From NCBI RefSeq assembly GCF_988242995.1, contig NZ_OZ547043.1: a stretch of 64,000 bases of DNA. The stretch is one strand, 5' to 3'. The notes beneath the pieces are model-generated. The model was not told the DNA's origin and made no database searches. It saw nothing but the letters and a program-made list of their open reading frames with translations. Below, piece by piece: positions 1 to 39,495 of this stretch; position 1 is the first letter of the stretch; every line of letters begins with the position of its first letter. The translations under genes were made by a program, and so were the position numbers.

Positions 1-109
1 GAAAACGGTCAATACTGTTCTTCTTTAATACTGTTTCATCGGTAATTACGCGATCTGCACCAACAATTTCCTTTAGCTGGTCGACAATCGCTGCGCGAGA
101 TAAAGACAT
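1..109 (-). CDS. ygcU: N-terminal part of FAD-linked oxidoreductase (gene continues beyond window start)
   Basis: Minus-strand translation from ATG (complement of 107-109) reads MSLSRAAIVDQLKEIVGADRVITDE...; position upstream of ygcW matches K-12 order. Truncated by window edge. Confidence 0.45.
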   Translation of the reverse strand, partial: MSLSRAAIVDQLKEIVGADRVITDETVLKKNSIDRF

Positions 110-178
110 AGTAATTCCTTCCTGATAATAAAAATGGAATAATCATTAATAAGAGAAAACAGAAACCACCGTTATGGA

Positions 179-964
179 TTAGCGCACTAAATAACCGCCA
201 TCAACCACTAATAAATGTCCGTTGACATAATTCGATGCCGGACTTGCGAGGAATACGGCTGCGCCCATTAAATCCTGAGTATCGCCCCAACGGTTTGCCG
301 GAATATGATCAAGAACGCGCTGGTTAGTTTCTGGATTACTACGGGTCGCCAGAGTGATATCGGTAGCGTAATATCCCGGAGCAATACCATTTACCTGAAT
401 ATTATATTGACCTAGTTCATCACAATAAGCTTTGGTGAACCCGGCAAGAGCATGTTTAGTGGCAGAATATGCAGGTGACCATTGTCCACCTAAGTAAGAG
501 AATAATGAACAGATATTAATGATTTTACCGCTTTTCTGCGGGATCATAATTTTTGCAGCTTCATAGCTTAACTCGAATGCGGCGGTCAGGTTCACATCAA
601 TCATCGGGTCCCAGTCGGCACGACCGAAGTCCAGCACCTTATTCAGCTTACAAATACCGGCATTGTTAATCAGAATATCGACGGTACCGAAACGTTCGCA
701 ACAGGCGGCGATTATCTTCTGCGGCGCGCCTTCTGCGGTGATATCCACCTGCATGAAGTCCACCTCAACACCCTGTTTTTCAATCATTTCCTTTGTTTCG
801 CCGTTATCTTTAACGAAGCTTGGAATAAAGATATTTGCGCCTGCTTTGGCCAGCGCCATGGCAAATGCCTGGCCTAAACCGCTATTCCCGCCGGTAACAA
901 TTGCGGTTTTACCTTTCAGGGAGAAAAAATCCATTGAGAACGCATTGAGAGATTCGATTGACAT
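179..964 (-). CDS. ygcW: Short-chain dehydrogenase/reductase family oxidoreductase
   Basis: ORF track 179..1039; start moved to internal Met (MSIESLNAF...) preceded by GGAG; TGxxxGxxG Rossmann motif (IVTGGNSGLG) and SDR catalytic Y-x3-K (YSATK). The 5' extension in the track translates a hairpin. Confidence 0.85.
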   Translation of the reverse strand: MSIESLNAFSMDFFSLKGKTAIVTGGNSGLGQAFAMALAKAGANIFIPSFVKDNGETKEMIEKQGVEVDFMQVDITAEGAPQKIIAACCERFGTVDILINNAGICKLNKVLDFGRADWDPMIDVNLTAAFELSYEAAKIMIPQKSGKIINICSLFSYLGGQWSPAYSATKHALAGFTKAYCDELGQYNIQVNGIAPGYYATDITLATRSNPETNQRVLDHIPANRWGDTQDLMGAAVFLASPASNYVNGHLLVVDGGYLVR

Positions 965-988
965 AGTTAGCTCCAATTTCCGTAAGGC

Positions 989-1035
989 AAAAAAAAAGAA
1001 AGGTAACTTCCCCCGCGAGAGGGAAGTTACCTTTC
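989..1035 (-). terminator. Perfect 15-bp inverted repeat (gaaaggtaacttccc / gggaagttacctttc, 8-nt loop) followed on the minus strand by a 9-T run; attenuator-like element in the ygcW 5' leader
   Basis: Read directly: arms 998-1012 and 1021-1035 are exact reverse complements; A9 run at 989-997 on + strand is a T9 run on minus strand, about 25 nt upstream of the ygcW start codon. Confidence 0.4.
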
Positions 1036-1088
1036 TCATTATCTCTGGTAACTGGAGATAATTTTTATCATAAGGGCATAATCGCTAA

Positions 1089-1104
1089 TGTGATCGTAAT
1101 CACA
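1089..1104. promoter_or_regulatory. Candidate cAMP-CRP binding site, TGTGA-N6-TCACA
   Basis: Sequence tgtgatcgtaatcaca matches both CRP half-sites with the canonical 6-bp spacer; lies between divergent ygcW and yqcE. Confidence 0.5.
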
Positions 1105-1282
1105 GTGTGATATTCGAATTGTCAAATAATTTTAAAAAGCAGAAGCGTGATTACTCTCACACAACACCACTACTTTCCATGTTATTTCTTATTGCAATTA
1201 CTAGAGACCTGAGAAAAGTAATCCACCTGAAAGGGCGGCTTACTTTTCTCTTTTTTTTGTCTATTACAAATGGGAATACGAT

Positions 1283-2560
1283 ATGCAACACAACTCATAT
1301 CGCCGTTGGATAACCCTCGCGATAATTAGTTTTAGCGGCGGCGTTAGTTTCGACCTGGCTTATTTACGTTATATTTATCAAATTCCCATGGCGAAATTTA
1401 TGGGATTCAGCAATACCGAGATAGGTTTAATAATGAGTACCTTTGGTATTGCGGCTATTATTCTTTATGCCCCCAGCGGCGTTATTGCCGATAAATTTTC
1501 ACACCGCAAAATGATTACTTCCGCGATGATCATTACCGGATTACTGGGTCTGTTAATGGCAACATATCCACCGCTGTGGGTAATGCTCTGTATTCAGGTC
1601 GCCTTTGCGATAACGACGATTTTAATGCTGTGGTCGGTGTCGATTAAAGCCGCCTCGTTGCTGGGCGATCATAGCGAGCAAGGGAAAATTATGGGCTGGA
1701 TGGAAGGGCTGCGCGGCGTCGGTGTAATGTCGCTGGCGGTGTTTACCATGTGGGTCTTTTCTCGCTTTGCACCGGATGACAGCGCCAGCCTGAAAACGGT
1801 CATTATTATCTATAGTGTGGTTTACATTCTGCTGGGCATTTTGTGTTGGTTTTTTGTTAGCAATAACAACAACCTGCGCAATACCAATAACGAAGAAAAA
1901 CAGTCATTCCAGCTTAGCGACATCCTGGCCGTTTTGCGCATCAGCACCACCTGGTATTGCAGCATGGTGATTTTTGGTGTCTTCACCATCTACGCCATTC
2001 TGAGTTACTCCACCAACTATCTGACCGAAATGTACGGCATGTCGCTGGTGGCGGCGAGCTACATGGGGATTGTGATCAACAAAATCTTCCGCGCACTGTG
2101 CGGACCACTTGGTGGCATTATCACCACCTACAGCAAAGTGAAATCCCCTACCCGCGTGATCCAAATCCTTTCCGTACTCGGCTTACTGGCGTTAACTGCC
2201 CTGCTCGTCACGAACTCTAACCCGCAATCGGTCGCGATGGGGATTGGCCTGATTTTACTGCTGGGATTCACCTGTTACGCCTCACGCGGGCTGTACTGGG
2301 CCTGCCCTGGCGAAGCGAGAACACCGTCTTACATTATGGGCACCACGGTAGGTATTTGTTCGGTGATTGGATTCCTGCCGGATGTCTTCGTTTACCCGAT
2401 TATCGGCTACTGGCAAGACACCCTGCCCGCTGCAGAAGCCTACCGCAATATGTGGCTGATGGGCATGGCGGCGCTTGCCATGGTGATCGTCTTTACCTTT
2501 TTGCTGTTCCAAAAAATTCGTACTGCTGATAGCGCCCCTGCTATGGCTAGCAGCAAGTAA
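1283..2560 (+). CDS. yqcE: MFS-family transporter, 12 predicted TM segments
   Basis: 425-aa ORF, highly hydrophobic, MFS-like; divergent from ygcW and followed by sugar kinase ygcE. Confidence 0.85.
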   Translation: MQHNSYRRWITLAIISFSGGVSFDLAYLRYIYQIPMAKFMGFSNTEIGLIMSTFGIAAIILYAPSGVIADKFSHRKMITSAMIITGLLGLLMATYPPLWVMLCIQVAFAITTILMLWSVSIKAASLLGDHSEQGKIMGWMEGLRGVGVMSLAVFTMWVFSRFAPDDSASLKTVIIIYSVVYILLGILCWFFVSNNNNLRNTNNEEKQSFQLSDILAVLRISTTWYCSMVIFGVFTIYAILSYSTNYLTEMYGMSLVAASYMGIVINKIFRALCGPLGGIITTYSKVKSPTRVIQILSVLGLLALTALLVTNSNPQSVAMGIGLILLLGFTCYASRGLYWACPGEARTPSYIMGTTVGICSVIGFLPDVFVYPIIGYWQDTLPAAEAYRNMWLMGMAALAMVIVFTFLLFQKIRTADSAPAMASSK

Positions 2561-2586
2561 GTCCAGAAAATTACAGGAGAAAAATC

Positions 2587-4065
2587 ATGTCGAAAAAATA
2601 CATCATAGGGATTGATGGTGGAAGTCAGAGCACAAAAGTGGTGATGTACGATCTGGAAGGTAATGTGGTTTGCGAAGGCAAAGGCTTATTGCAGCCGATG
2701 CACACGCCAGATGCCGATACCGCAGAACATCCTGACGACGATTTATGGGCATCATTATGCTTTGCCGGTCACGATTTGATGAGTCAGTTTGCCGGAAATA
2801 AAGAAGATATTGTCGGTATTGGTCTGGGATCCATCCGTTGCTGCCGTGCGTTATTGAAAGCCGATGGCACGCCAGCTGCGCCGTTGATTAGCTGGCAGGA
2901 TGCACGCGTTACACGCCCTTACGAACATACGAATCCTGACGTGGCATATGTCACCTCTTTTTCAGGTTATCTGACGCATCGCTTAACCGGCGAGTTTAAA
3001 GACAATATCGCCAACTATTTTGGTCAGTGGCCGGTGGATTATAAGACCTGGGCATGGAGTGAAGATGCCGCAGTCATGGAGAAGTTTAATATCCCCCGTC
3101 ATATGCTGTTTGATGTGCAAATGCCGGGCACTGTTCTTGGGCATATCACTCCTCAAGCCGCGCTGGCGACACATTTCCCGGCTGGGCTGCCGGTTGTTTG
3201 TACCACCAGTGATAAACCGGTTGAAGCACTGGGAGCTGGGTTACTGGATGATGAAACGGCGGTAATTTCTCTTGGCACTTACATCGCGCTGATGATGAAC
3301 GGCAAAGCACTGCCGAAAGATCCGCTGGCGTACTGGCCGATTATGTCTTCTATTCCGCAAACATTGCTGTATGAAGGTTACGGTATCCGCAAAGGCATGT
3401 GGACGGTGAGCTGGCTACGCGACATGCTAGGCGAGTCGTTAATTCAGGATGCCAAAGCACAGGATCTTTCACCGGAAGATTTACTCAACAAAAAAGCGTC
3501 TTGTGTGCCGCCAGGCTGTAATGGTCTGATGACGGTGCTGGACTGGCTGACCAATCCGTGGGAACCGTACAAACGCGGGATTATGATCGGCTTTGATTCC
3601 AGCATGGATTACGCATGGATATATCGTTCGATACTGGAAAGCGTGGCGCTGACGCTGAAGAACAATTTCGACAATATGTGTAATGAAATGAATCACTTTG
3701 CAAAGCATGTGATCATTACTGGCGGCGGTTCGAACAGCGATCTGTTTATGCAGATTTTTGCCGACGTGTTCAACCTTCCGGCACGCCGTAACGCCATTAA
3801 TGGTTGTGCAAGCCTGGGGGCAGCGATTAATACGGCGGTAGGTCTGGGGCTATACCCGGATTACGCAACGGCTGTCGACAAAATGGTTCGCGTGAAAGAT
3901 ATCTTTATGCCTGTTGAGAACAATGCCAAACGCTACGACGCGATGAATAAAGGCATTTTCAAGGAGTTAACCAAACATACTGATGTAATCCTGAAAAAAT
4001 CGTATGAAGTGATGCATGGGGAATTGGGGAATGCGGATTCGATCCAGAGCTGGTCGAATGCGTAA
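2587..4065 (+). CDS. ygcE: FGGY-family carbohydrate kinase
   Basis: 492-aa ORF; N-terminal IGIDGGSQSTK sugar-kinase fold motif; RBS aggaga 7 nt upstream. Confidence 0.85.
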   Translation: MSKKYIIGIDGGSQSTKVVMYDLEGNVVCEGKGLLQPMHTPDADTAEHPDDDLWASLCFAGHDLMSQFAGNKEDIVGIGLGSIRCCRALLKADGTPAAPLISWQDARVTRPYEHTNPDVAYVTSFSGYLTHRLTGEFKDNIANYFGQWPVDYKTWAWSEDAAVMEKFNIPRHMLFDVQMPGTVLGHITPQAALATHFPAGLPVVCTTSDKPVEALGAGLLDDETAVISLGTYIALMMNGKALPKDPLAYWPIMSSIPQTLLYEGYGIRKGMWTVSWLRDMLGESLIQDAKAQDLSPEDLLNKKASCVPPGCNGLMTVLDWLTNPWEPYKRGIMIGFDSSMDYAWIYRSILESVALTLKNNFDNMCNEMNHFAKHVIITGGGSNSDLFMQIFADVFNLPARRNAINGCASLGAAINTAVGLGLYPDYATAVDKMVRVKDIFMPVENNAKRYDAMNKGIFKELTKHTDVILKKSYEVMHGELGNADSIQSWSNA

Positions 4066-4111
4066 GTGAGGAAGACCGGGCGGGAAACTGCCCGGCCTGA
4101 ACATACCTGAA

Positions 4112-4249
4112 TGGTTATCCCCGCTGGCGCGGGGAACATAAGTTCGACAACTTAAAAAATGATAACAAGTCCGGTTTATCCCCGCTGATGCAGGGAACAT
4201 AATAAAAACTTTAACTAGTTCGGTTTATCCCTGTTTTTACAAGGAATAT
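4112..4249 (-). CRISPR. Degenerate short CRISPR locus: three decayed type I-E-like repeats
   Basis: Repeat-like units at 4112-4139, 4172-4200 and 4221-4249 resemble cggtttatccccgctggcgcggggaactc with increasing divergence; first spacing about 32 bp, second only 20 bp. Confidence 0.6.
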
Positions 4250-4700
4250 TAACTACACTCGATGTATTTAGAATAAAAGACAATACGAATCGCACTTTAT
4301 CAATTTTCACTTAAAGTATGAACTGGATATCTTTATTCATAAGAACTATTCATCAACAGCGTATAGAGGCGATTATGTAAAACCACTCATTAGCCTCAAA
4401 ACAAAGACAAATTTCCAGATTTATTACTTAATCAATGAATAACAAGCTTAAAAAATACACTGTTATTCTAAAGAAAAAATTAACAGGCATTAATTAATAT
4501 TAAAAAAATAATATGTTAAAATTTCTTAACGGTTTAAGGATTATACAAATAACACTTTGATTAAATTTTATTTTTTGTATCGATAATTGTGAACTTGTCA
4601 TATATGGAGAGCTATTTTGAACATGAGGTGTTACGTGGATATGTTGCTTAATACGAGTACTGCTAATATAAAAACTTGAGAAAGAGATAACGGGTTATAT
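4250..4700 (-). promoter_or_regulatory. AT-rich tract between the two CRISPR loci; positionally the leader of the degenerate array
   Basis: Strongly AT-rich non-coding stretch on the same side of the repeats as the leader of the main array. Confidence 0.35.
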
Positions 4701-4702
4701 GG

Positions 4703-5219
4703 TGGTTTATTCCCGCTGGTGCGGGGAACTCATCAGTGATATCCAACATTGCGGAGCTAAACGCGGTTTATCCCCGCTGGCGCGGGGAACTCAATTAGCC
4801 CGCCTCGCGCGGGTTTTTTTGTGCCGGTTTATCCCCGCTGGCGCGGGGAACTCTTTACTTATCTGCAAATATTTTTTGTCAGCTGCGGTTTATCCCCGCT
4901 GGCGCGGGGAACTCACGAACGCGGCACACCAGGGCGTCTCATCGTCCGGTTTATCCCCGCTGGCGCGGGGAACTCGAACACGACAGGAGTGATAAATGTA
5001 CGCACATCGGTTTATCCCCGCTGGCGCGGGGAACTCGGCTGATAGTGCTTCTGATTATTCGGCGCAAGCGGTTTATCCCCGCTGGCGCGGGGAACTCTAG
5101 GACCCAATATAAAACCGACTGGTTATTTTCGGTTTATCCCCGCTGGCGCGGGGAACTCTTTCAGTCTGGAACACAACGGCGTTAAATAACCGGTTTATCC
5201 CCGCTGGCGCGGGGAACTC
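4703..5219 (-). CRISPR. Type I-E CRISPR array, 9 repeats of 29 bp and 8 spacers of 32 bp; terminal repeat at 4703-4731 is degenerate
   Basis: Repeats start at 4703, 4764, 4825, 4886, 4947, 5008, 5069, 5130, 5191 with an exact 61-bp period; minus-strand repeat is GAGTTCCCCGCGCCAGCGGGGATAAACCG, the canonical E. coli I-E repeat. Confidence 0.95.
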
Positions 5220-5420
5220 ACTAAACATAACCTATTATTAATTATTGATTTTTTAAGTCAGTCACAATCTACCAACTTAACAGAAACACACAAACAACAC
5301 ATCCATTATGTTAAAGAGCACTTAATTCATTGATTGAAAAGCCAAATATTTAAAGTAATTCTATACCGACTAAAATCCACCAAACTCCGACGTAATAATT
5401 TTCACTCCAACGAAAAATTA
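5220..5420 (-). promoter_or_regulatory. CRISPR leader (AT-rich, adjacent to the newest repeat)
   Basis: AT-rich sequence abutting the intact repeat at 5191-5219, opposite the degenerate end; typical leader position. Extent is approximate. Confidence 0.55.
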
Positions 5421-10706: not shown

Positions 10707-11498
10707 TTAGAGATCAATTTCCTGCCGTTTTACCTGTTGCCAGACTTCTTCCATTGTTTCGAGGTCAACACCTGTCATTTCCAGTCCACGCGCGGCAACA
10801 ATACGCTCCACTTCGCGAAAACGACGCTCGAATTTTTCATTGGCTTTTTGCAATGCGATTTCCGCTTTTGTCCCTAAATGACGAGCCAGATTGACCGTGG
10901 CAAACAGCAGGTCGCCCATTTCCTCCTCCAGTTTAGCCTGGTCGATAACAGCCTGCCGTGCCTCGTACATCACCTCGTCGATCTCTTCGTAGACTTTATC
11001 GACTACCGGACCAAGCGTCGTCCAGTCAAAACCAACGTTGGCGCAACGTTTCTGGATTTTTTGTGCACGCATTAATGCCGGTAAACTACGAGGAATATCG
11101 TCCAGCGCCGAATGCTGCGCTTTCTGCGCGCGCTCTTCGGTTTTGATTTGCTCCCAACGGGCAAGCACTTCACTACTGTTTTCGGCAGAACTGTCAGCAA
11201 AAACATGCGGATGGCGACGTTCTAATTTATCGCTGATCGCGGCGCAAATATCATTAAAGTCAAAGCGCCCTTCTTCCTGGGCCATTTGTGCGTAAAACAC
11301 CACCTGGAACAGCAGATCGCCCAGTTCACCGCGCAGATCGTCAAAATCTTCACGGGCGATGGCGTCCAGCACCTCGTAGGTTTCTTCAAGGGTGTAAGGC
11401 GCAATGGTGGCAAATGTCTGCTCTTTATCCCACGGGCAGCCGTTTTCCGGGTCGCGCAGGCGCTGCATGATGGTGAGCAAACGGTCGATTTGATTCAT
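10707..11498 (-). CDS. mazG: Nucleoside triphosphate pyrophosphohydrolase
   Basis: 263-aa ORF with tandem MazG-type domains (EEXXE motifs). Confidence 0.9.
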   Translation of the reverse strand: MNQIDRLLTIMQRLRDPENGCPWDKEQTFATIAPYTLEETYEVLDAIAREDFDDLRGELGDLLFQVVFYAQMAQEEGRFDFNDICAAISDKLERRHPHVFADSSAENSSEVLARWEQIKTEERAQKAQHSALDDIPRSLPALMRAQKIQKRCANVGFDWTTLGPVVDKVYEEIDEVMYEARQAVIDQAKLEEEMGDLLFATVNLARHLGTKAEIALQKANEKFERRFREVERIVAARGLEMTGVDLETMEEVWQQVKRQEIDL

Positions 11499-11556
11499 TG
11501 AATTGTCCTGAAAATTGCGGGTCTGTCAGGTGTAATACCTTCGAGTAAAAGATATC

Positions 11557-11584
11557 GCTGGATACGGCTGACGCCATATCCAGC
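11557..11584 (-). terminator. Hairpin directly after relA stop (gctggata-N12-tatccagc); possible relA terminator or attenuator
   Basis: 8-bp perfect inverted repeat read from sequence; followed on minus strand by a weak T-tract (gatatctttt). Confidence 0.3.
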
Positions 11585-11593
11585 TATGTAAGA

Positions 11594-13828
11594 CTAACTC
11601 CCGTGCAACCGACGCGCGTCGATAACATCCGGCACCTGGTTGAGTTTACCCAGCACGCGGCCCAGCACTTGCAGGTTGTAAATCTCAATGGTCATGTCGA
11701 TGGTCGCCAGTTGCTGTTTGGTGTCGCTACGGCTGGCAACGCCAAGCACGTTCACCTTCTCGTTGGCGAGAATGGTCGTGATATCACGTAACAACCCACT
11801 ACGATCATTAGCCACCACGCGGACCACCAGCGAATATCCGGCGGAGTAGCTCTCGCCCCATACCGCGTCAACAATGCGTTCTGGCGCATGGGAGCGCAGT
11901 TCCGCCAGTTGCTCACAGTCTGCACGATGCACTGAAATACCGCGTCCCTGGGTAATGAAGCCGACAATCTCATCTCCAGGAATCGGCTGGCAGCAGCGCG
12001 CGATGTGGTGCATCAGGTTACCGACACCTTCAACCACCACACGACCGTTATCTTTACTGCGGTTTTGCGGCGTGTAGCTTTTTTGCTGAAGTTGCTTCAG
12101 CGCGGCGGCGTCCTGCTCTTCGGCACTCGGCTTATTAAATTGCGATTGCAGGAAGTTCACCATCTGATTGAGACGGATATCCCCGCCACCAATCGCCGCC
12201 AGCAACTCGTCGACATCATTGAAGTTGTAACGCGGCAGCAGATGTTTTTCTGCTTCTTTCAGGCTGATCCCCAGATGTTCCAGCTCGTCGTCAAGGATTT
12301 GCCGCCCAGCCAGAATGTTTTTGTCACGGTCCTGTTTACGGAACCAGGCGTGAATTTTCGAACGCCCACGGCTGGTTGTGACGTAACCGAGGTTTGGGTT
12401 TAACCAGTCACGGCTGGGGTTCGGCTGTTTCTGGGTGATAATTTCAATCTGGTCGCCCATCTGCAGCTGGTAGGTGAACGGCACAATGCGCCCGCCAATT
12501 TTTGCCCCGATGCAGCGGTGTCCGACATCACTGTGGATGTGGTAAGCGAAGTCCAGCGGTGTTGATCCCGCAGGCAAATCAACGACATCACCTTTCGGCG
12601 TAAAGACGTACACCCGGTCGTCAAAGACCTGGCTACGTACTTCGTCGAGCATTTCGCCGGAATCAGCCATCTCTTCCTGCCACGCAATCAGTTTACGCAG
12701 CCAGGCAATCCGGTCTTCATGTCCCGAACGTGCGCCGCCAGCTGCCGCGCCCTCTTTATATTTCCAGTGCGCAGCAACACCCAACTCTGCATCTTCATGC
12801 ATCTGTTTAGTGCGGATTTGGATCTCAACGGTTTTGCCACCTGGTCCCAGAACCACGGTATGAATAGACTGATAACCGTTTGGTTTCGGGTTAGCGACGT
12901 AATCGTCAAACTCATCCGGCAGGTGGCGATAGTGAGTGTGCACTATCCCCAGTGCGGCATAACAATCCTGTAAACGCTCGGCGACAATACGTACCGCACG
13001 CACATCAAACAGCTCATCGAAGGCGAGGTTCTTTTTCTGCATTTTGCGCCAGATGCTGTAGATGTGTTTCGGACGACCATACACTTCAGCTTTAACGCCT
13101 TCAGCTTTCATCTCAGCGCGCAGATGGCCGACAAACTCTTCGATATAGTGTTCGCGGTCGAGACGGCGTTCATGCAGCAGTTTTGCGATGCGTTTGTATT
13201 CGGTCGGGTGGAGATAACGGAAGCAGTAATCTTCCAGCTCCCATTTCAGTTGTCCAATCCCAAGACGGTTCGCCAACGGCGCGTAGATATTGGTGCACTC
13301 TTTTGCCGCCAGTACGCGTTCATCTTCCGGCGCGTCTTTTACTTCGCGCAGATGAGCAATACGCTCTGCCAGTTTGATGACCACGCAGCGAAAATCATCG
13401 ACCATCGCCAATAACATCCGGCGAACGTTATCGACCTGTTCGGAGGAAACAGAATCGGTATGCGTCGCTTTCAGCTGGCGGATCGCCGCCATATCACGCA
13501 CGCCGTGAATAAGGTTAACGACCGACTTACCGACGCTCTCACGCAGCACATCTTCGCTGACTACGTTGGCATCCGCCAGAGGGAACAGCAGCGCCGCCCG
13601 CAGCGTGTCAATGTCCATACTTAATGTCGAGAGGATCTCCACCATCTCAACACCACGCCACAATAACAGACTGGCATCCGGATGCCCCTGCGTCTGTTGC
13701 AGACAATACGCCCAGGTTTCGGCTAAGCACTCACACGACTTCTGGCTGGTAATACCCAGACTTGCGATCCATTTTTCCGGATCAAATTCACCAGCCTTAT
13801 TGATATGTGCACTTCTTACCGCAACCAT
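11594..13828 (-). CDS. relA: GTP pyrophosphokinase, (p)ppGpp synthetase I
   Basis: 744-aa ORF with RelA/SpoT synthetase domain, TGS and ACT regions. Confidence 0.95.
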   Translation of the reverse strand: MVAVRSAHINKAGEFDPEKWIASLGITSQKSCECLAETWAYCLQQTQGHPDASLLLWRGVEMVEILSTLSMDIDTLRAALLFPLADANVVSEDVLRESVGKSVVNLIHGVRDMAAIRQLKATHTDSVSSEQVDNVRRMLLAMVDDFRCVVIKLAERIAHLREVKDAPEDERVLAAKECTNIYAPLANRLGIGQLKWELEDYCFRYLHPTEYKRIAKLLHERRLDREHYIEEFVGHLRAEMKAEGVKAEVYGRPKHIYSIWRKMQKKNLAFDELFDVRAVRIVAERLQDCYAALGIVHTHYRHLPDEFDDYVANPKPNGYQSIHTVVLGPGGKTVEIQIRTKQMHEDAELGVAAHWKYKEGAAAGGARSGHEDRIAWLRKLIAWQEEMADSGEMLDEVRSQVFDDRVYVFTPKGDVVDLPAGSTPLDFAYHIHSDVGHRCIGAKIGGRIVPFTYQLQMGDQIEIITQKQPNPSRDWLNPNLGYVTTSRGRSKIHAWFRKQDRDKNILAGRQILDDELEHLGISLKEAEKHLLPRYNFNDVDELLAAIGGGDIRLNQMVNFLQSQFNKPSAEEQDAAALKQLQQKSYTPQNRSKDNGRVVVEGVGNLMHHIARCCQPIPGDEIVGFITQGRGISVHRADCEQLAELRSHAPERIVDAVWGESYSAGYSLVVRVVANDRSGLLRDITTILANEKVNVLGVASRSDTKQQLATIDMTIEIYNLQVLGRVLGKLNQVPDVIDARRLHGS

Positions 13829-15233: not shown

Positions 15234-17990
15234 ATGACCAACTACAGCCTGCGCGCACGCATGATGATTCTGATCCTGGCACCGACCGTCCTTATTGGTT
15301 TATTGCTGAGTATCTTTTTCGTTGTGCATCGCTATAACGATTTGCAGCGTCAACTGGAAGATGCCGGAGCCAGCATTATTGAGCCGCTTGCAGTTTCTAC
15401 TGAATATGGCATGAGCCTGCAAAATCGCGAATCTATCGGTCAGTTAATAAGCGTACTGCATCGTCGCCATTCCGATATTGTTCGCGCGATTTCGGTTTAT
15501 GATGAAAATAACCGACTCTTTGTCACCTCCAATTTTCATCTTGATCCCTCATCAATGCAGCTCGGCAGCAACGTGCCGTTTCCTCGCCAGCTCACTGTCA
15601 CTCGTGACGGCGATATTATGATCCTCCGCACACCGATTATTTCTGAGAGTTACTCCCCCGACGAATCGCCCAGTAGCGATGCCAAAAATAGTCAAAATAT
15701 GTTGGGATATATTGCGCTTGAGCTGGATCTTAAATCGGTTCGCTTGCAGCAATATAAAGAGATCTTTATTTCCAGCGTGATGATGCTGTTTTGTATCGGT
15801 ATTGCGCTTATTTTTGGCTGGCGCTTAATGCGCGATGTAACCGGTCCGATTCGCAATATGGTGAATACCGTCGACCGCATCCGTCGCGGGCAACTCGACA
15901 GCCGGGTGGAAGGATTTATGCTCGGCGAGCTGGATATGCTGAAAAACGGTATCAACTCGATGGCAATGTCGCTGGCTGCTTATCACGAAGAGATGCAGCA
16001 CAATATCGACCAGGCGACGTCCGATCTGCGTGAAACGCTGGAGCAGATGGAAATTCAGAACGTTGAGTTGGATCTGGCGAAAAAGCGTGCCCAGGAAGCG
16101 GCGCGTATTAAATCCGAGTTTCTGGCAAATATGTCACACGAGCTGCGTACACCACTGAATGGTGTTATTGGCTTTACTCGCCTGACGCTGAAAACAGAAT
16201 TAACACCAACGCAGCGCGATCACCTGAATACGATTGAACGTTCGGCAAATAATTTGCTGGCAATTATTAATGATGTTCTCGACTTCTCGAAACTGGAAGC
16301 AGGTAAGCTGATTCTGGAAAGTATTCCATTCCCACTACGCAGCACGCTGGATGAAGTCGTTACCCTGCTGGCACATTCTTCTCACGATAAAGGGCTGGAA
16401 CTGACGCTCAATATTAAGAGCGACGTGCCCGATAACGTAATTGGCGACCCACTGCGATTACAGCAAATCATCACTAACCTGGTAGGGAATGCAATTAAAT
16501 TCACCGAGAATGGCAACATTGATATTCTGGTAGAAAAACGTGCGCTGAGTAATACCAAAGTGCAGATTGAAGTGCAGATTCGGGATACCGGCATTGGTAT
16601 TCCTGAACGCGATCAATCGCGCTTATTCCAGGCCTTCCGACAGGCTGATGCCAGTATTTCCCGCCGTCATGGTGGCACCGGGCTGGGGCTGGTGATTACA
16701 CAAAAACTGGTTAATGAAATGGGCGGCGATATTTCGTTCCATAGCCAGCCGAATCGCGGTTCAACTTTCTGGTTCCACATTAATCTCGATCTGAACCCGA
16801 ACATTATTATCGAAGGGCCATCCACCCAGTGCCTAGCCGGCAAGCGCCTGGCCTATGTCGAACCAAACTCCGCAGCAGCGCAATGCACGCTGGATATTTT
16901 AAGTGAAACGCCGCTGGAAGTGGTTTATAGCCCAACGTTCTCCGCGCTGCCTCCCGCGCATTACGACATGATGTTGTTAGGCATCGCGGTGACCTTCCGC
17001 GAGCCGCTAACAATGCAACATGAGCGATTAGCGAAAGCGGTATCGATGACCGATTTTCTGATGCTGGCACTTCCTTGCCATGCACAAGTCAATGCTGAAA
17101 AACTTAAGCAAGATGGTATCGGCGCGTGTCTGCTGAAACCATTAACACCTACGCGCCTGTTACCTGCCCTGACGGAATTTTGTCATCACAAACAAAACAC
17201 GCTTTTGCCTGTAACCGATGAAAGTAAGCTGGCAATGACAGTCATGGCGGTTGATGACAACCCCGCTAACCTGAAACTTATCGGCGCATTGCTGGAAGAT
17301 ATGGTGCAACATGTGGAACTTTGCGATAGCGGGCATCAGGCGGTTGAACGGGCGAAACAAATGCCGTTCGATTTGATCTTAATGGATATTCAAATGCCGG
17401 ACATGGACGGCATTCGGGCCTGCGAGCTCATCCACCAGCTCCCCCATCAGCAACAAACGCCAGTTATCGCGGTAACGGCGCATGCAATGGCCGGGCAAAA
17501 AGAGAAGCTGCTTGGCGCAGGGATGAGCGATTATCTGGCGAAACCGATTGAAGAAGAGCGATTGCATAATTTGTTGTTGCGCTACAAGCCTGGCAGCGGT
17601 ATTTCCTCTCGCGTCGTGACGCCCGAAGTCAACGAAATTGTGGTGAACCCGAATGCGACCCTCGACTGGCAACTGGCACTACGCCAGGCAGCAGGAAAAA
17701 CCGATTTAGCGCGCGATATGCTGCAAATGTTACTCGATTTCCTGCCTGAAGTTCGCAACAAAGTTGAGGAACAGCTGGTTGGAGAAAACCCGGAAGGCCT
17801 GGTTGATTTGATTCATAAACTGCATGGCAGTTGCGGCTATAGCGGTGTGCCGCGTATGAAGAATCTCTGCCAACTGATCGAACAACAGCTACGTAGCGGT
17901 ACTAAAGAAGAAGATTTGGAGCCGGAGCTGCTGGAACTGTTAGACGAGATGGATAATGTAGCGCGCGAAGCCAGCAAAATTCTCGGGTAA
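15234..17990 (+). CDS. barA: Hybrid sensor histidine kinase of the BarA/UvrY two-component system
   Basis: 918-aa ORF with HAMP, HisKA (H-box SHELRTPLN), HATPase, receiver and HPt domains. Confidence 0.95.
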
Positions 17991-24870: not shown

Positions 24871-25416
24871 TTACAGAAGAGGCTTAAGTTGATTAAGGAA
24901 TTCCGCAAGATTTGAGGCTAAATGCGCCCGTTTACGTGTTCCCAGCGTCTCTTTACACACTTCACCGGAGAGATTACACACCGAGATCACCTCTAACTCT
25001 TCTTCCAGCGTCGCGATAAATAGCGTGGGCGGCAATTTTAGCCTTTTCTGAGTCACCAGATGACCAATCAGATTTTCCTGCACCCGACGGAAGTCGTCTT
25101 CACTCCAGGTTTGCAGCAATGTCAGTTTAATATCGCCAAACTGCGCGTGCATATCCCCGGCAAACTGAGTCGTATAAAAGGTATGAATTGTGGGTTGTAT
25201 CACAATATCAAAAGCGCGTTCAACCGCGTTTACATTTTGTTCCCCGGTAAACGGCTGGGGTTGCCAGTATACGGCGTCTTCGGTGGTTGAAATAATGCAC
25301 GGTGAAGGAACGCCGTACAGTTCCTCACTCAACGGCCAGCTTTTATGCTCTTCATGCCACGCATCGCAGTAGCGTGCAGTAAAATCTTTCAGGGCTTGTG
25401 CGGTCAAATCGTCCAC
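24871..25416 (-). CDS. syd: SecY-interacting protein Syd
   Basis: 181-aa ORF in the K-12 position between csrB and queF. Confidence 0.85.
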
Positions 25417-34101: not shown

Positions 34102-34419
34102 TCCATTCCCCCTCGCCAGAAATGCCCGTTTTCGGCACAAACAATTAATACGGTCATCGGGTTTGTGTTTTTTATGATTTATTTTCTGAAACGGGCATGA
34201 AATTTCGATTATTAAAGTGATGGTAGTCACATAAAGTCACCTCCCAGCTAATAAGTGTGACCGCCGTCATATTACAGAGCGTTTTTTATTTGAAAATGAA
34301 TCCATGAGTTCATTTCTGACAGGCAAATATTCACTGATATGAAGCCCGAACTCGCTGGTTTTGCACTTTTGAAAACATAACCGATTACGTGCTTAAGCTT
34401 CTGAACCTAAGAGGATGCT

Positions 34420-39072: not shown

Positions 39073-39495
39073 ATGCTGAAAACAATTTCGCCGTTAATTT
39101 CTCCCGAACTATTGAAAGTGCTGGCAGAGATGGGGCATGGAGATGAAATTATTTTTTCCGATGCTCACTTTCCCGCCCATTCGATGGGACCGCAGGTGAT
39201 CCGCGCTGATGGCCTGTTGGTGAGCGACTTGCTCCAGGCGATTATCCCGTTATTTGAACTGGACAGTTATGCACCGCCGCTGGTGATGATGGCGGCGGTA
39301 GAAGGTGACACTCTCGATCCTGAAGTAGAACGACGTTATCGTAATGCGCTTTCACTACAAGCCCCCTGTCCTGACATCATCCGCATCAATCGTTTTGCGT
39401 TTTATGAACGGGCGCAAAAAGCCTTTGCGATCGTTATCACAGGCGAACGAGCGAAGTACGGGAATATTCTTTTAAAAAAAGGGGTAACACCGTAA
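39073..39495 (+). CDS. fucU: L-fucose mutarotase
   Basis: 140-aa RbsD/FucU-family ORF. Confidence 0.9.

What the first reader, a model, noticed from the sequence alone, without database searches (positions are those of the whole stretch)
1..4065. Uncharacterised catabolic module ygcU-ygcW / yqcE-ygcE with a consensus CRP site
A FAD-linked oxidoreductase and an SDR dehydrogenase (minus strand) diverge from an MFS transporter and an FGGY sugar kinase (plus strand). The shared control region holds a textbook CRP site (tgtgatcgtaatcaca, 1089-1104) and a second 7-bp inverted repeat (ttatctc-N9-gagataa, 1038-1060). This is the signature of a cAMP-dependent sugar or polyol utilisation locus whose substrate, to my knowledge, is not established.
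Basis: partly seen in the sequence, partly recalled or inferred. Interest (0 to 1): 0.5.

Follow-up and report, generated by a model that had tools for sequence, protein, structure and literature searches.

The report
Terminator-gated divergent ygc catabolic operons
The region between two uncharacterised E. coli catabolic operons has two cAMP-CRP sites, not one. Each mRNA leader also carries a conserved transcription stop signal that the neighbouring GlpP-like protein YgcP probably overrides when the unknown substrate is present; this is a known kind of switch, not yet described for this locus.

Summary
The window starts in the E. coli ygc locus: ygcU 5' end, ygcW (SDR), yqcE (MFS) and ygcE (FGGY kinase). 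TGTGATCGTAATCACA sits at 1089-1104 and is the only perfect CRP core in 64 kb.

That site is already published: predicted in 2007, ChIP-bound in ETEC, and bound in vitro with Kd 1.7 nM.

- **Second CRP site.** A near-consensus site lies at 1146-1161. In 49 enterobacterial orthologues each promoter has its own site, 41.5-44.5 nt upstream of its leader.
- **Leader terminators.** Both leaders end in a strong intrinsic terminator about 25 nt before the start codon. The published 73-nt and 63-nt "sRNAs" ecr2774 and ecr2775 map to these promoter-to-terminator segments.
- **The "second inverted repeat".** It is not conserved as a repeat. Half of it belongs to a conserved RNA hairpin (AGTTACY, loop AGAGA..GAGAAA, RGTAACT) that competes with the terminator and shows compensatory changes.

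The motif travels with ygcP, a full-length GlpP-family antiterminator gene about 5 kb outside the window, in Enterobacterales, Vibrio, Listeria, Bacilli and Clostridia.

Best reading: dual control by CRP and by YgcP antitermination. The YgcP step is inferred, and the substrate remains unknown.

The parts
1..109 (-). 5' end of ygcU (FAD-linked oxidase of the GlcD / alkyl-DHAP-synthase type); second gene of the ygcW operon
   Evidence: RefSeq annotation of the 99.4%-identical genome; NCBIfam GlcD-like hit at 1.5e-41, below the curated cut-off
179..964 (-). ygcW, an SDR oxidoreductase that falls just short of a KduD model (350 bits against a cut-off of 369)
988..1037 (-). ygcW leader intrinsic terminator: hairpin 1037->998, then a U9 tract 997->989. 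It ends 24 nt before the ygcW ATG.
   Evidence: (z = -6.6). The published ecr2774 3' end maps to about 984.
1025..1053 (-). ygcW leader antiterminator hairpin: AGTTACC (1053->1047), loop AGAGATAATGAGAAA (1046->1032), GGTAACT (1031->1025). Its 3' strand lies inside the terminator's 5' arm.
1038..1062 (.). Only the 1038-1054 part is conserved, as leader RNA. The other arm overlaps the transcription start and the promoter's start-proximal region.
1062..1070 (-). Predicted extended -10 element (TGaTAAAAA) of the ygcW promoter. The published 5' end is at about 1057; promoter geometry predicts 1054-1055.
   Evidence: TGnTA lies at -15 to -17 from the helix start in all 49 distinct orthologous sequences; ecr2774 coordinates
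1089..1104 (.). CRP site 1 (perfect core), centred 43.5 nt upstream of the ygcW leader helix; it serves the ygcW promoter
   Evidence: published binding
1146..1161 (.). CRP site 2 (CGTGATTACTCTCACA, one mismatch), centred 42.5 nt upstream of the mapped yqcE leader 5' end; it serves the yqcE promoter
1180..1188 (+). Predicted extended -10 element (TGtTATTTC) of the yqcE promoter
   Evidence: TGnTA at -16 in 40 of 46 distinct orthologous sequences
1196..1223 (+). yqcE leader antiterminator hairpin: AATTACT (1196-1202), loop AGAGACCTGAGAAA (1203-1216), AGTAAT(C) (1217-1223). Position 1196 is the published 5' end of ecr2775.
1211..1259 (+). yqcE leader intrinsic terminator: hairpin 1211-1250, then a U8 tract 1251-1258. 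It ends 24 nt before the yqcE ATG.
   Evidence: (z = -4.4). The ecr2775 3' end is at 1259, and the RNA was northern-verified.
1283..2560 (+). yqcE, an MFS transporter with weak similarity to the anion:cation symporter group (D-galactonate transporter / PgtP models)
2587..4065 (+). ygcE, an FGGY-family kinase. Its best models are XylB, LsrK, GntK and GlpK, all far below their cut-offs.

Best explanation
The 318-bp ygcW-yqcE spacer holds two back-to-back CRP-dependent promoters of class-II geometry. Each has its own CRP site and an extended -10 element.

Each promoter makes a 63-73-nt leader. By default the leader folds into a strong intrinsic terminator and transcription stops about 25 nt before the start codon. 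These short products are the published 'sRNAs' ecr2774 and ecr2775.

The first 28-29 nt of each leader can instead form a weak hairpin: AGTTACY paired with RGTAACT, with a conserved loop AGAGAY-N2-4-GAGAAA. This hairpin uses up part of the terminator's 5' arm.

I propose that YgcP binds and stabilises this hairpin when loaded with a phosphorylated pathway intermediate, most simply the product of the FGGY kinase YgcE, by analogy with glycerol-3-phosphate and B. subtilis GlpP. YgcP is the PF04309 (GlpP-family) protein encoded about 5 kb away, outside the window. RNA polymerase would then read through into ygcW-ygcU(-ygcSRQ) and yqcE-ygcE. Expression would thus need both carbon limitation (cAMP-CRP) and the specific substrate.

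Shown: the sequence elements, their conservation and covariation, their co-occurrence with ygcP, and, from published data, CRP binding and short terminated transcripts.
Inferred: that YgcP binds this RNA, the identity of the ligand, and the substrate of the pathway.
For: 1. Terminators. Both leaders have a hairpin plus U8-9 tract 24 nt before the ATG. The same arrangement is present on both sides in every enterobacterial orthologue examined. That gap leaves no room for another promoter, so the genes can be expressed only by reading through the terminator.

2. In vivo transcripts. Romero et al. 2014 (PMC4681348, Table S5) list ecr2774 (73 nt, minus strand) and ecr2775 (63 nt, plus strand, northern-verified) in this spacer. 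After calibrating the coordinate offset on GcvB (+1978) they map to window 984-1057 and 1196-1259. That is from the predicted start to the U-tract in each case.

3. Antiterminator helix.
- It is the minimum-energy fold of the nascent RNA (-6.7 and -1.4 kcal/mol), but far weaker than the terminator (-34.2 and -21.6).
- Compensatory changes: G-C 66 / A-T 26 at position 2, T-A 67 / C-G 23 at position 7, and A-T to G-C at position 5. Listeria also shows GTTGC/GCGAC.
- 84.5% of cells are paired, against 16-54% when the partner strand is slid; the covariation score exceeds all 500 shuffles.

4. Regulator. YgcP matches Pfam G3P_antiterm over its full length (E = 1.6e-62) and the Listeria 'glycerol uptake operon antiterminator' structure 3kts (1e-27).

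5. Co-occurrence.
- Protein-first search: 64 ygcP loci. Every locus that extends beyond ygcP into its neighbouring operons also carries the motif. In all but two Clostridia loci (L065, L066) the neighbours are SDR, FGGY and FAD-oxidase genes; in those two the weak hits sit beside glycerol-3-phosphate-oxidase-like genes.
- Loci not used to build the model also hit: Vibrio at 67 and 61 bits, Clostridium at 63 and 58 bits, Fodinisporobacter at 37 and 25 bits.
- RNA-first metagenome scan: 59 of 80 pattern matches lie beside ygc-type genes.

6. Copy number. The covariance model finds exactly two forward-strand copies in the 64-kb window and two in 20 kb of K-12. Both are in this spacer.

7. CRP. 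Two sites in all 49 orthologues, each 41.5-44.5 nt from its own leader, while the distance between sites varies 36-173 bp. TGnTA lies 15-17 nt upstream of the leader helix in all 49 ygcW-side and 45 of 46 yqcE-side sequences.
Against: - There is no experiment on YgcP, and the paper library has no functional paper.
- Independent compensatory events are few, about 4-5, and one change is uncompensated (C-A in 4 Rahnella/Ewingella-type sequences). The sequences are related, so the shuffle control overstates significance.
- The yqcE antiterminator helix is very weak (-1.4 to -1.7 kcal/mol).
- ecr2774's published 5' end (about 1057) is 2-4 nt upstream of where the promoter geometry puts the start. 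That would place CRP site 1 at -39.5 rather than -41.5.
- Only CRP site 1 has reported binding. Site 2 is a prediction.
- I could not retrieve the B. subtilis glpD/glpFK leader sequences, so identity with the authentic GlpP target is untested.
- One full-length motif (L129 = L078) has no GlpP-family gene within about 6 kb.
Confidence: 0.6

Rival explanations
1. One reading: one shared CRP site activates both divergent promoters, the 7-8-bp inverted repeat is the operator of a DNA-binding specific regulator, and no RNA-level control is involved.
For: The perfect CRP site is real and is bound in vivo and in vitro. The inverted repeat is exact in this window and is not expected by chance.
Against: The repeat is not conserved as a palindrome: 8/8 in only 3 of 49 sequences, and 6/8 even in some E. 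coli. No DNA-binding regulator gene is conserved in the cluster; the only conserved regulator is the PF04309 protein. Two CRP sites, each at a fixed distance from its own promoter, fit the data better than one shared site. The model ignores terminators that demonstrably produce short RNAs.
Confidence: 0.08
2. The leaders are protein-independent riboswitches. The small conserved hairpin-loop binds the inducing metabolite directly and prevents terminator formation. YgcP would have another role, for example an enzymatic one, since PF04309 has a phosphate-binding-barrel-like fold.
For: The alternative antiterminator/terminator folds and the conserved purine-rich loop have the architecture of a transcriptional 'ON' riboswitch. 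One full-length motif lies in a locus with no GlpP gene nearby (L129).
Against: The candidate aptamer is only about 29 nt, a 7-bp AU-rich stem plus a 14-18-nt loop, with no further conserved structure. It co-occurs with PF04309 genes across Enterobacterales, Vibrio, Bacilli and Clostridia. In B. subtilis the protein family is an experimentally shown RNA-binding antiterminator (literature summarised). Rfam has no matching family.
Confidence: 0.1
3. The short transcripts are genuine trans-acting small RNAs (ecr2774, ecr2775), as first catalogued. Their terminators are constitutive, and the downstream genes are essentially cryptic in E. coli.
For: They accumulate enough to be seen by RNA-seq, and ecr2775 by northern blot, in LB and/or M9-glucose. 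The module's substrate is unknown, and no inducing condition appeared in the papers I searched.
Against: The same element sits directly in front of the first gene of SDR, FGGY, FAD-oxidase or transporter operons in distant phyla, in either orientation. That pattern is typical of a cis-acting leader. Conservation is concentrated in the antiterminator/terminator switch, not in a single-stranded seed region. The coding genes are intact and conserved in 5054-5395 of 5426 E. coli genomes. A dual role is not excluded.
Confidence: 0.1
4. Read-through of the leader terminators is controlled by something other than YgcP, such as a leader peptide with ribosome-mediated attenuation, a general antitermination factor, or temperature.
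For: An AUG at 1039 is in frame with ygcW through the terminator. B. subtilis glp leaders also act as RNA thermometers.
Against: The AUG is not conserved: the yqcE-side and many other leaders have CUG, CAG or AAG at that position, and there is no conserved ORF. Nothing else explains why the motif co-occurs specifically with ygcP.
Confidence: 0.05

Closest known systems
Bacillus subtilis GlpP antitermination of glpD, glpFK and glpTQ (Holmberg & Rutberg 1991/1992; Glatz et al. 1996/1998; Darbon et al. 2002, as cited in PMC9604022 and PMC10573289)
   Same: A PF04309 regulator. Target operons with an intrinsic terminator in the 5' UTR just downstream of the promoter. The regulated genes encode an FGGY kinase, an FAD-dependent dehydrogenase and a transporter, paralleling GlpK, GlpD and GlpF/T. 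Catabolite control is layered on top (CcpA there, CRP here). Weak model hits with the same AGAGA..GAG loop lie between glpP and glycerol-3-P-oxidase-like genes in two Clostridia.
   Different: The host is a Gram-negative bacterium, in which no GlpP-type system has been studied as far as I could find. The enzymes are not glycerol enzymes: the FAD enzyme is GlcD / alkyl-DHAP-synthase-like rather than GlpD, and there is an SDR plus, in E. coli, an ETF/ETF-QO set. The two targets are divergent and share one spacer. The ligand is unknown. RNA binding by YgcP is untested, and I could not compare sequences with the B. subtilis leaders.
E. coli BglG / B. subtilis SacY-LicT antitermination at RAT elements
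   Same: A weak protein-stabilised hairpin at the 5' end of the leader overlaps the 5' arm of an intrinsic terminator. The operon is catabolic and also CRP-dependent in E. coli. This comparison rests on established knowledge, not on a test here.
   Different: The protein family is unrelated (CAT-PRD, controlled by PTS phosphorylation) and the RNA consensus differs. Here control would be by a small-molecule ligand.
Class II CRP-dependent promoters (galP1 type) in divergent catabolic regions
   Same: The CRP site centre lies about 41.5-42.5 nt upstream of the start and overlaps the -35 position, with an extended -10 TGn element. Binding is documented for site 1.
   Different: There are two separate sites 57 bp apart, one per promoter, rather than one shared site. 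CRP activation is necessary but probably not sufficient, because of the leader terminators.
ecr2774 / ecr2775 'potential novel sRNAs' (Romero et al. 2014, PMC4681348)
   Same: They are the same transcripts: their coordinates coincide with the two leaders.
   Different: [quoted passage not shown] Here they are read as attenuated leader transcripts of a conditional terminator.

Membership tests
GlpP-type (PF04309) antitermination system | A regulator protein of the G3P_antiterm family encoded with the regulated genes | tested here: met
   YgcP matches PF04309 at 1.6e-62 over positions 1-173 of 173 and PDB 3kts at 1e-27. It is clustered with ygcU/W, yqcE and ygcE in the Enterobacterales loci that reach them, and with the SDR, FGGY-kinase and FAD-oxidase genes in Vibrio, Listeria, Bacilli and Clostridium. 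The gene lies outside the window, about 5 kb upstream of position 1.
GlpP-type (PF04309) antitermination system | An intrinsic terminator in the 5' UTR of each target operon, between promoter and start codon | tested here: met
   Hairpin plus U8-9 tract 24 nt before each ATG; conserved with covariation; short terminated RNAs published
GlpP-type (PF04309) antitermination system | The protein binds the leader RNA and suppresses termination | not testable with these tools
   There is only indirect support: a conserved alternative hairpin with compensatory changes and co-occurrence with the protein gene.
GlpP-type (PF04309) antitermination system | Activity depends on a phosphorylated inducer (glycerol-3-phosphate in B. 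subtilis) | not testable with these tools
   An FGGY kinase gene is always in the module. Whether the ligand is G3P or another phosphate ester is unknown.
GlpP-type (PF04309) antitermination system | The RNA target resembles the authentic B. subtilis glpD/glpFK/glpTQ leader site | not tested
   Those sequences are not held; the paper's figure is an image. The only proxy is weak model hits next to glycerol-3-P-oxidase-like genes in two Clostridia.
CRP regulon, class II promoter | A match to the CRP consensus TGTGA-N6-TCACA | tested here: met
   Site 1 is perfect. Site 2 has one mismatch. Both are conserved in 49 orthologous spacers.
CRP regulon, class II promoter | CRP binding to the site | tested here: inconclusive
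   Not testable here. The literature reports ChIP in ETEC and in vitro Kd 1.7 nM for site 1. There are no separate data for site 2.
CRP regulon, class II promoter | Site centred near -41.5 relative to the transcription start | tested here: met
   Site 2 is at -42.5 from the published ecr2775 5' end. Site 1 is at -39.5 from the published ecr2774 end, or -41.5/-42.5 from the start predicted by the -10 element.
CRP regulon, class II promoter | Transcription depends on cAMP-CRP | not testable with these tools
   yqcE-ygcE is listed under 'Crp activation' in PMC8085971. I did not examine the basis for that listing.
Rfam RNA families | A match to any curated covariance model | tested here: not met
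   Only sub-threshold chance hits in 1-5000 at E <= 1

The most novel reading that the evidence does not exclude
The two leaders carry the recognition element of a cross-phylum class of GlpP-family riboregulation: a roughly 29-nt hairpin, AGTTACY - AGAGA..GAGAAA - RGTAACT, overlapping a terminator. In E. coli, YgcP would then be a second ligand- or protein-dependent catabolic antiterminator besides BglG. It would sense a phosphorylated intermediate other than glycerol-3-phosphate and so gate an undiscovered pathway. The appearance of the same leader in front of betaine/choline-type ABC transporter and MttB-family genes in anaerobes hints that the substrate is not an ordinary sugar.
Probability: 0.45. 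Interest if true: 0.65.

Novelty: new member of a known kind. Interest (0 to 1): 0.5.

Why it matters
The ygc cluster is among the E. coli K-12 genes that still lack a known function. If the leaders are YgcP-controlled conditional terminators, two things follow.

- **Why no inducing condition has turned up.** In the papers I searched, no condition inducing these genes was reported. This model would explain that: CRP activation alone yields only 63-73-nt RNAs.
- **A direct way to find the substrate.** A leader-reporter fusion becomes a biosensor that can be screened against compound arrays, and purified YgcP plus a 30-nt RNA gives a ligand-binding assay.

It would also give a sequence and structure consensus for the RNA target of the GlpP family, extend that mechanism to Gram-negative bacteria, and re-classify two catalogued 'sRNAs' as attenuation products. 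If YgcP proves irrelevant, what remains is an ordinary, already published CRP target.

Tried and rejected
- **Rfam scan of 1-5000 at E <= 1.** Nothing relevant.
- **Leader-peptide attenuation.** The in-frame AUG at 1039 is not conserved, and there is no conserved small ORF.
- **The inverted repeat as a conserved operator.** Rejected on conservation.
- **A third copy of the motif upstream of ygcN-ygcO-ygcP or elsewhere in the window.** None. The model finds only the two leaders, plus reverse-strand echoes of the symmetrical terminator stems.
- **Comparison with the B. subtilis glpD leader.** The sequence is available only as an image in the held paper, and the 2025 review of RNA-binding antiterminators does not mention GlpP.
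- **Literature search on ygcU/ygcE/ygcS/ygcN.** Mostly noise from unrelated strings. The only functional item is that YgcS overexpression helps NMN production, which says nothing about the natural substrate.
- **P0090 look-up.** Failed.
- **Metagenome pattern scan.**
  - 21 of 80 matches had no ygc-type gene nearby.
  - I tested 20 of them with the model. 18 lacked a terminator and model hit, so I treat them as chance matches; the other two, L078 and L129, are the same sequence.
  - L073 was not tested.
- **Substrate from family models.** Every enzyme falls below every curated equivalog cut-off.

Full report
**What is there**

The first 4.1 kb of the window is the E. coli ygc locus. Megablast finds the stretch in 5395 of 5426 complete E. 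coli genomes, mostly at 95-99% identity and at best 99.4%.
- RefSeq annotation of the best match gives ygcU (FAD-binding oxidoreductase), ygcW (SDR), yqcE (MFS transporter) and ygcE (FGGY kinase).
- In window coordinates these are 1-109 (-), 179-964 (-), 1283-2560 (+) and 2587-4065 (+).
- NCBIfam places each protein in the expected superfamily but below every curated enzyme cut-off. YgcW comes closest, at 350 bits against 369 for a KduD model.

The paper library holds no functional study.

**The CRP site**

TGTGATCGTAATCACA is at exactly 1089-1104 and is the only perfect TGTGA-N6-TCACA in 64 kb, against 0.01 expected. It is not new:
- PhyloScan ranked ygcW/yqcE among its top CRP predictions in 2007.
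- CRP ChIP in ETEC H10407 found the site.
- A 2026 Footprint-seq preprint gives an in vitro Kd of 1.7 nM.
- yqcE-ygcE is listed as Crp-activated.

I fetched 64 loci through a ygcP protein search of one genome per species, mapped the genes by tblastn, and extracted 49 orthologous ygcW-yqcE spacers. Each spacer has two CRP-like sites. Each site lies 41.5-44.5 nt upstream of the conserved start of its own leader, while the distance between the two sites ranges from 36 to 173 bp. A TGnTA extended -10 element lies 15-17 nt upstream of the leader helix in all 49 ygcW-side and 45 of 46 yqcE-side sequences. This is the geometry of two independent class-II CRP promoters, not one shared site.

**The leaders**

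On each strand, between promoter and start codon, there is a long hairpin followed by a U-tract that ends 24 nt before the ATG.
- Minus strand: hairpin 1037->998, then U9 at 997->989.
- Plus strand: hairpin 1211-1250, then U8 at 1251-1258.
- The folds are far more stable than shuffled sequence, with z = -6.6 and -4.4.
- The same arrangement occurs on both sides in every enterobacterial orthologue.

An alignment of 94 distinct elements (A1) gives a terminator consensus with compensatory pairs. A covariance model built from it (R1) finds exactly two forward-strand copies in the whole window, at 83 and 81 bits, and two in 20 kb of K-12. None lies upstream of ygcN.

With only 24 nt between U-tract and ATG there is no room for a further promoter. 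The genes can therefore be expressed only by reading through the terminator.

**Published transcripts**

Romero et al. 2014 (PMC4681348) catalogued two 'potential novel sRNAs' in this spacer: ecr2774 (2898315-2898388, minus, 73 nt) and ecr2775 (2898527-2898590, plus, 63 nt, confirmed by northern blot). They classed both as simple stem-loops.

I calibrated their coordinate system against NC_000913.3 using GcvB, which gives an offset of +1978. The RNAs then map to window 984-1057 (-) and 1196-1259 (+).
- The plus-strand RNA starts on the first base of the conserved leader and ends at the last U of the tract. This puts CRP site 2 at -42.5.
- The minus-strand RNA runs from 2-4 nt upstream of the start predicted by the -10 element to a few bases past the U-tract.

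So both promoters fire and both terminators work in cells grown in LB and/or M9-glucose.

**The switch**

Upstream of each terminator the alignment shows an invariant GAG and GAGAAA in a purine-rich stretch, flanked by AGTTACY on the 5' side and RGTAACT on the 3' side. RGTAACT is part of the terminator's 5' arm, so pairing it with AGTTACY excludes the terminator.
- **Covariation.** Position 2 is G-C in 66 sequences and A-T in 26, with 2 mismatches. Position 7 is T-A in 67 and C-G in 23, with 4 C-A mismatches. Position 5 is A-T in 92 and G-C in 2. Listeria, Bacillus and Fodinisporobacter use GTTGC with GCGAC or GC(G)AAC.
- **Formal count.** 84.5% of cells pair, against 16-54% when the partner strand is slid. 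Three of the seven pairs show double-sided changes, and the covariation score exceeds all 500 shuffles.
- **Caveat.** The sequences are related, and I estimate only 4-5 independent compensatory events plus one uncompensated change.
- **Energetics.** The hairpin is the minimum-energy fold of the nascent RNA before the terminator's 3' arm is made (-6.7 and -1.4 kcal/mol). It is no match for the full terminator (-34.2 and -21.6). Such an antiterminator needs a stabilising factor.

The repeat exists, with 7-bp arms at 1039-1045 and 1055-1061, one base off the coordinates given. Its right half on the minus strand, together with the spacer, is the conserved CAGTTACCAGAGATAAT of the leader RNA. The other arm is not conserved: complementarity is 8/8 in only 3 Escherichia sequences, 6-7/8 in other Escherichia, and 1-5/8 in most other genera. 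That arm also overlaps the transcription start. It is a lineage-specific coincidence built on a conserved RNA motif, not an operator.

**The likely factor**

About 5 kb upstream of the window start, in all close relatives, lies ygcP. It matches Pfam G3P_antiterm over its full length (E = 1.6e-62) and the Listeria 'glycerol uptake operon antiterminator' structure 3kts.

B. subtilis GlpP, loaded with glycerol-3-phosphate, overrides terminators in the 5' UTRs of glpD, glpFK and glpTQ. Those promoters are described as -35/-10, GlpP site, then terminator.

The association between gene and motif holds in both directions.
- **Protein-first.**
  - ygcP is clustered with the SDR, FGGY-kinase and FAD-oxidase genes in Enterobacterales, five Listeria species, Bacillus and Thalassobacillus. 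YgcW is 70-77% identical, and YgcU 61-67% identical, between E. coli and these Firmicutes.
  - The same holds in Vibrio hannami, Clostridium sediminicola and Fodinisporobacter.
  - In each of these, R1 hits sit directly upstream of module operons. Scores reach 67 bits in sequences that were not used to build the model.
- **RNA-first.**
  - A pattern scan of metagenome contigs returned 80 loci, of which 59 carry ygc-type genes beside the match.
  - Of the other 21, I tested 20 with R1. Eighteen had no hit and I treat them as chance pattern matches. One (L073) was not tested.
  - The remaining two, L078 and L129, are the same sequence. They hold a full-length motif in front of an MttB-family / betaine-type ABC operon, with no GlpP gene within about 6 kb.
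- **Glycerol-type loci.** Two Clostridia with glycerol-type neighbourhoods show weak hits with the same AGAGA..GAG loop between glpP and a glycerol-3-P-oxidase-like gene. The loop may therefore be a general PF04309 recognition element.

**Mechanism proposed**

cAMP-CRP at two class-II sites starts transcription in both directions, and by default both transcripts terminate after 63-73 nt. When YgcP is loaded with a phosphorylated intermediate, most simply the YgcE product by analogy with GlpK and GlpP, it would stabilise the 5' hairpin, block the terminator, and allow ygcW-ygcU(-ygcSRQ) and yqcE-ygcE to be expressed.

The module parallels the glp regulon: FGGY kinase, FAD-dependent dehydrogenase, transporter and antiterminator. 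It adds an SDR and, in E. coli, an ETF/ETF-QO set. The steps 'YgcP binds this RNA' and 'the ligand is the kinase product' are inferences.

**Rivals**

Each is less well supported, for the reasons given in their entries, but none is excluded by computation alone.

**Verdict**

The finding as written is a correct description of a known CRP target next to genes of unknown function. Its mechanistic reading is incomplete. What is really there is a pair of CRP-dependent promoters gated by conserved conditional terminators, most likely under the GlpP-like antiterminator YgcP. That makes it a new member of a known kind of system, not previously described for this locus and absent from Rfam. It gives a practical route to finding the substrate.

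Noticed in passing
window 4112-4250 and 4704-5217: Directly after ygcE there is a degenerate remnant of 2-3 type I-E CRISPR repeats. About 450 bp further on there is an intact-looking array of 9 repeats at a 61-bp period (GGTTTATCCCCGCTGGCGCGGGGAAC).
   Followed up: partly
window 10707-13828: mazG (10707-11498, -) and relA (11594-13828, -) are adjacent with a 95-nt gap. The mazE-mazF toxin-antitoxin pair, which I recall lying between them in K-12 (not checked here), is absent in this lineage, as in strain GMF054.
   Followed up: partly
window 34216-34231, 34256-34271, 39426-39441, 25189-25204: Four further one-mismatch CRP cores. Two lie 40 bp apart near 34.2 kb. The one at 39426 (TGCGATCGTTATCACA) is identical to the published fucU/fucR site. 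Six such sites were found in the window against 2.0 expected.
   Followed up: no
L129 6223-6294 (= L078 5561-5632); L131 1416-1487; L070 12773-16053; L068 8715-10286: The same leader motif (58-62 bits) precedes betaine/choline-family ABC transporter genes and an MttB-family methyltransferase operon in anaerobe metagenome contigs. Fodinisporobacter has OpuA-like ABC genes in the SDR-FGGY operon, and Vibrio has a BCCT transporter gene next to ygcP. This is a lead that the substrate is taken up by quaternary-amine-type transporters in other phyla.
   Followed up: partly
L065 2983-3067; L066 5453-5530: In two Clostridia whose glpP homologue sits next to a type-2 glycerol-3-phosphate-oxidase-like gene, weak model hits (33 and 23.5 bits) with the same AGAGA..GAG loop and a terminator lie between the two genes. 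The loop may be a general recognition element of PF04309 proteins.
   Followed up: partly
L011 about 16322-16470; L012 about 12668-12816: In Citrobacter youngae and Klebsiella spallanzanii about 127 bp are inserted between the yqcE leader terminator and the yqcE start codon, so the distance is about 156 nt instead of about 32. I did not examine the nature of the insert.
   Followed up: no
L033 13855-13986: In Limnobaculum eriocheiris the ygcW-yqcE spacer is only 130 bp. It holds a single symmetrical hairpin with A- and T-runs on both sides, and no antiterminator motif or CRP sites. It looks like a collapsed or rearranged control region.
   Followed up: no
L002 4658-8556 and loci L034-L056: The ETF-type genes (ygcN, O, Q, R) are absent from 14 of the Serratia, Pantoea, Erwinia, Ewingella and related loci, and ygcS is absent or relocated there. 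ygcN and ygcO are also missing from all the Firmicutes loci examined, and ETF-like ygcQ/R genes from most of them. By contrast ygcP-ygcU-ygcW-ygcE is the constant core, usually with a transporter gene. ygcQ/R/N/O are also much more divergent between genera (40-78% identity) than ygcP/U/W (85-97%).
   Followed up: partly
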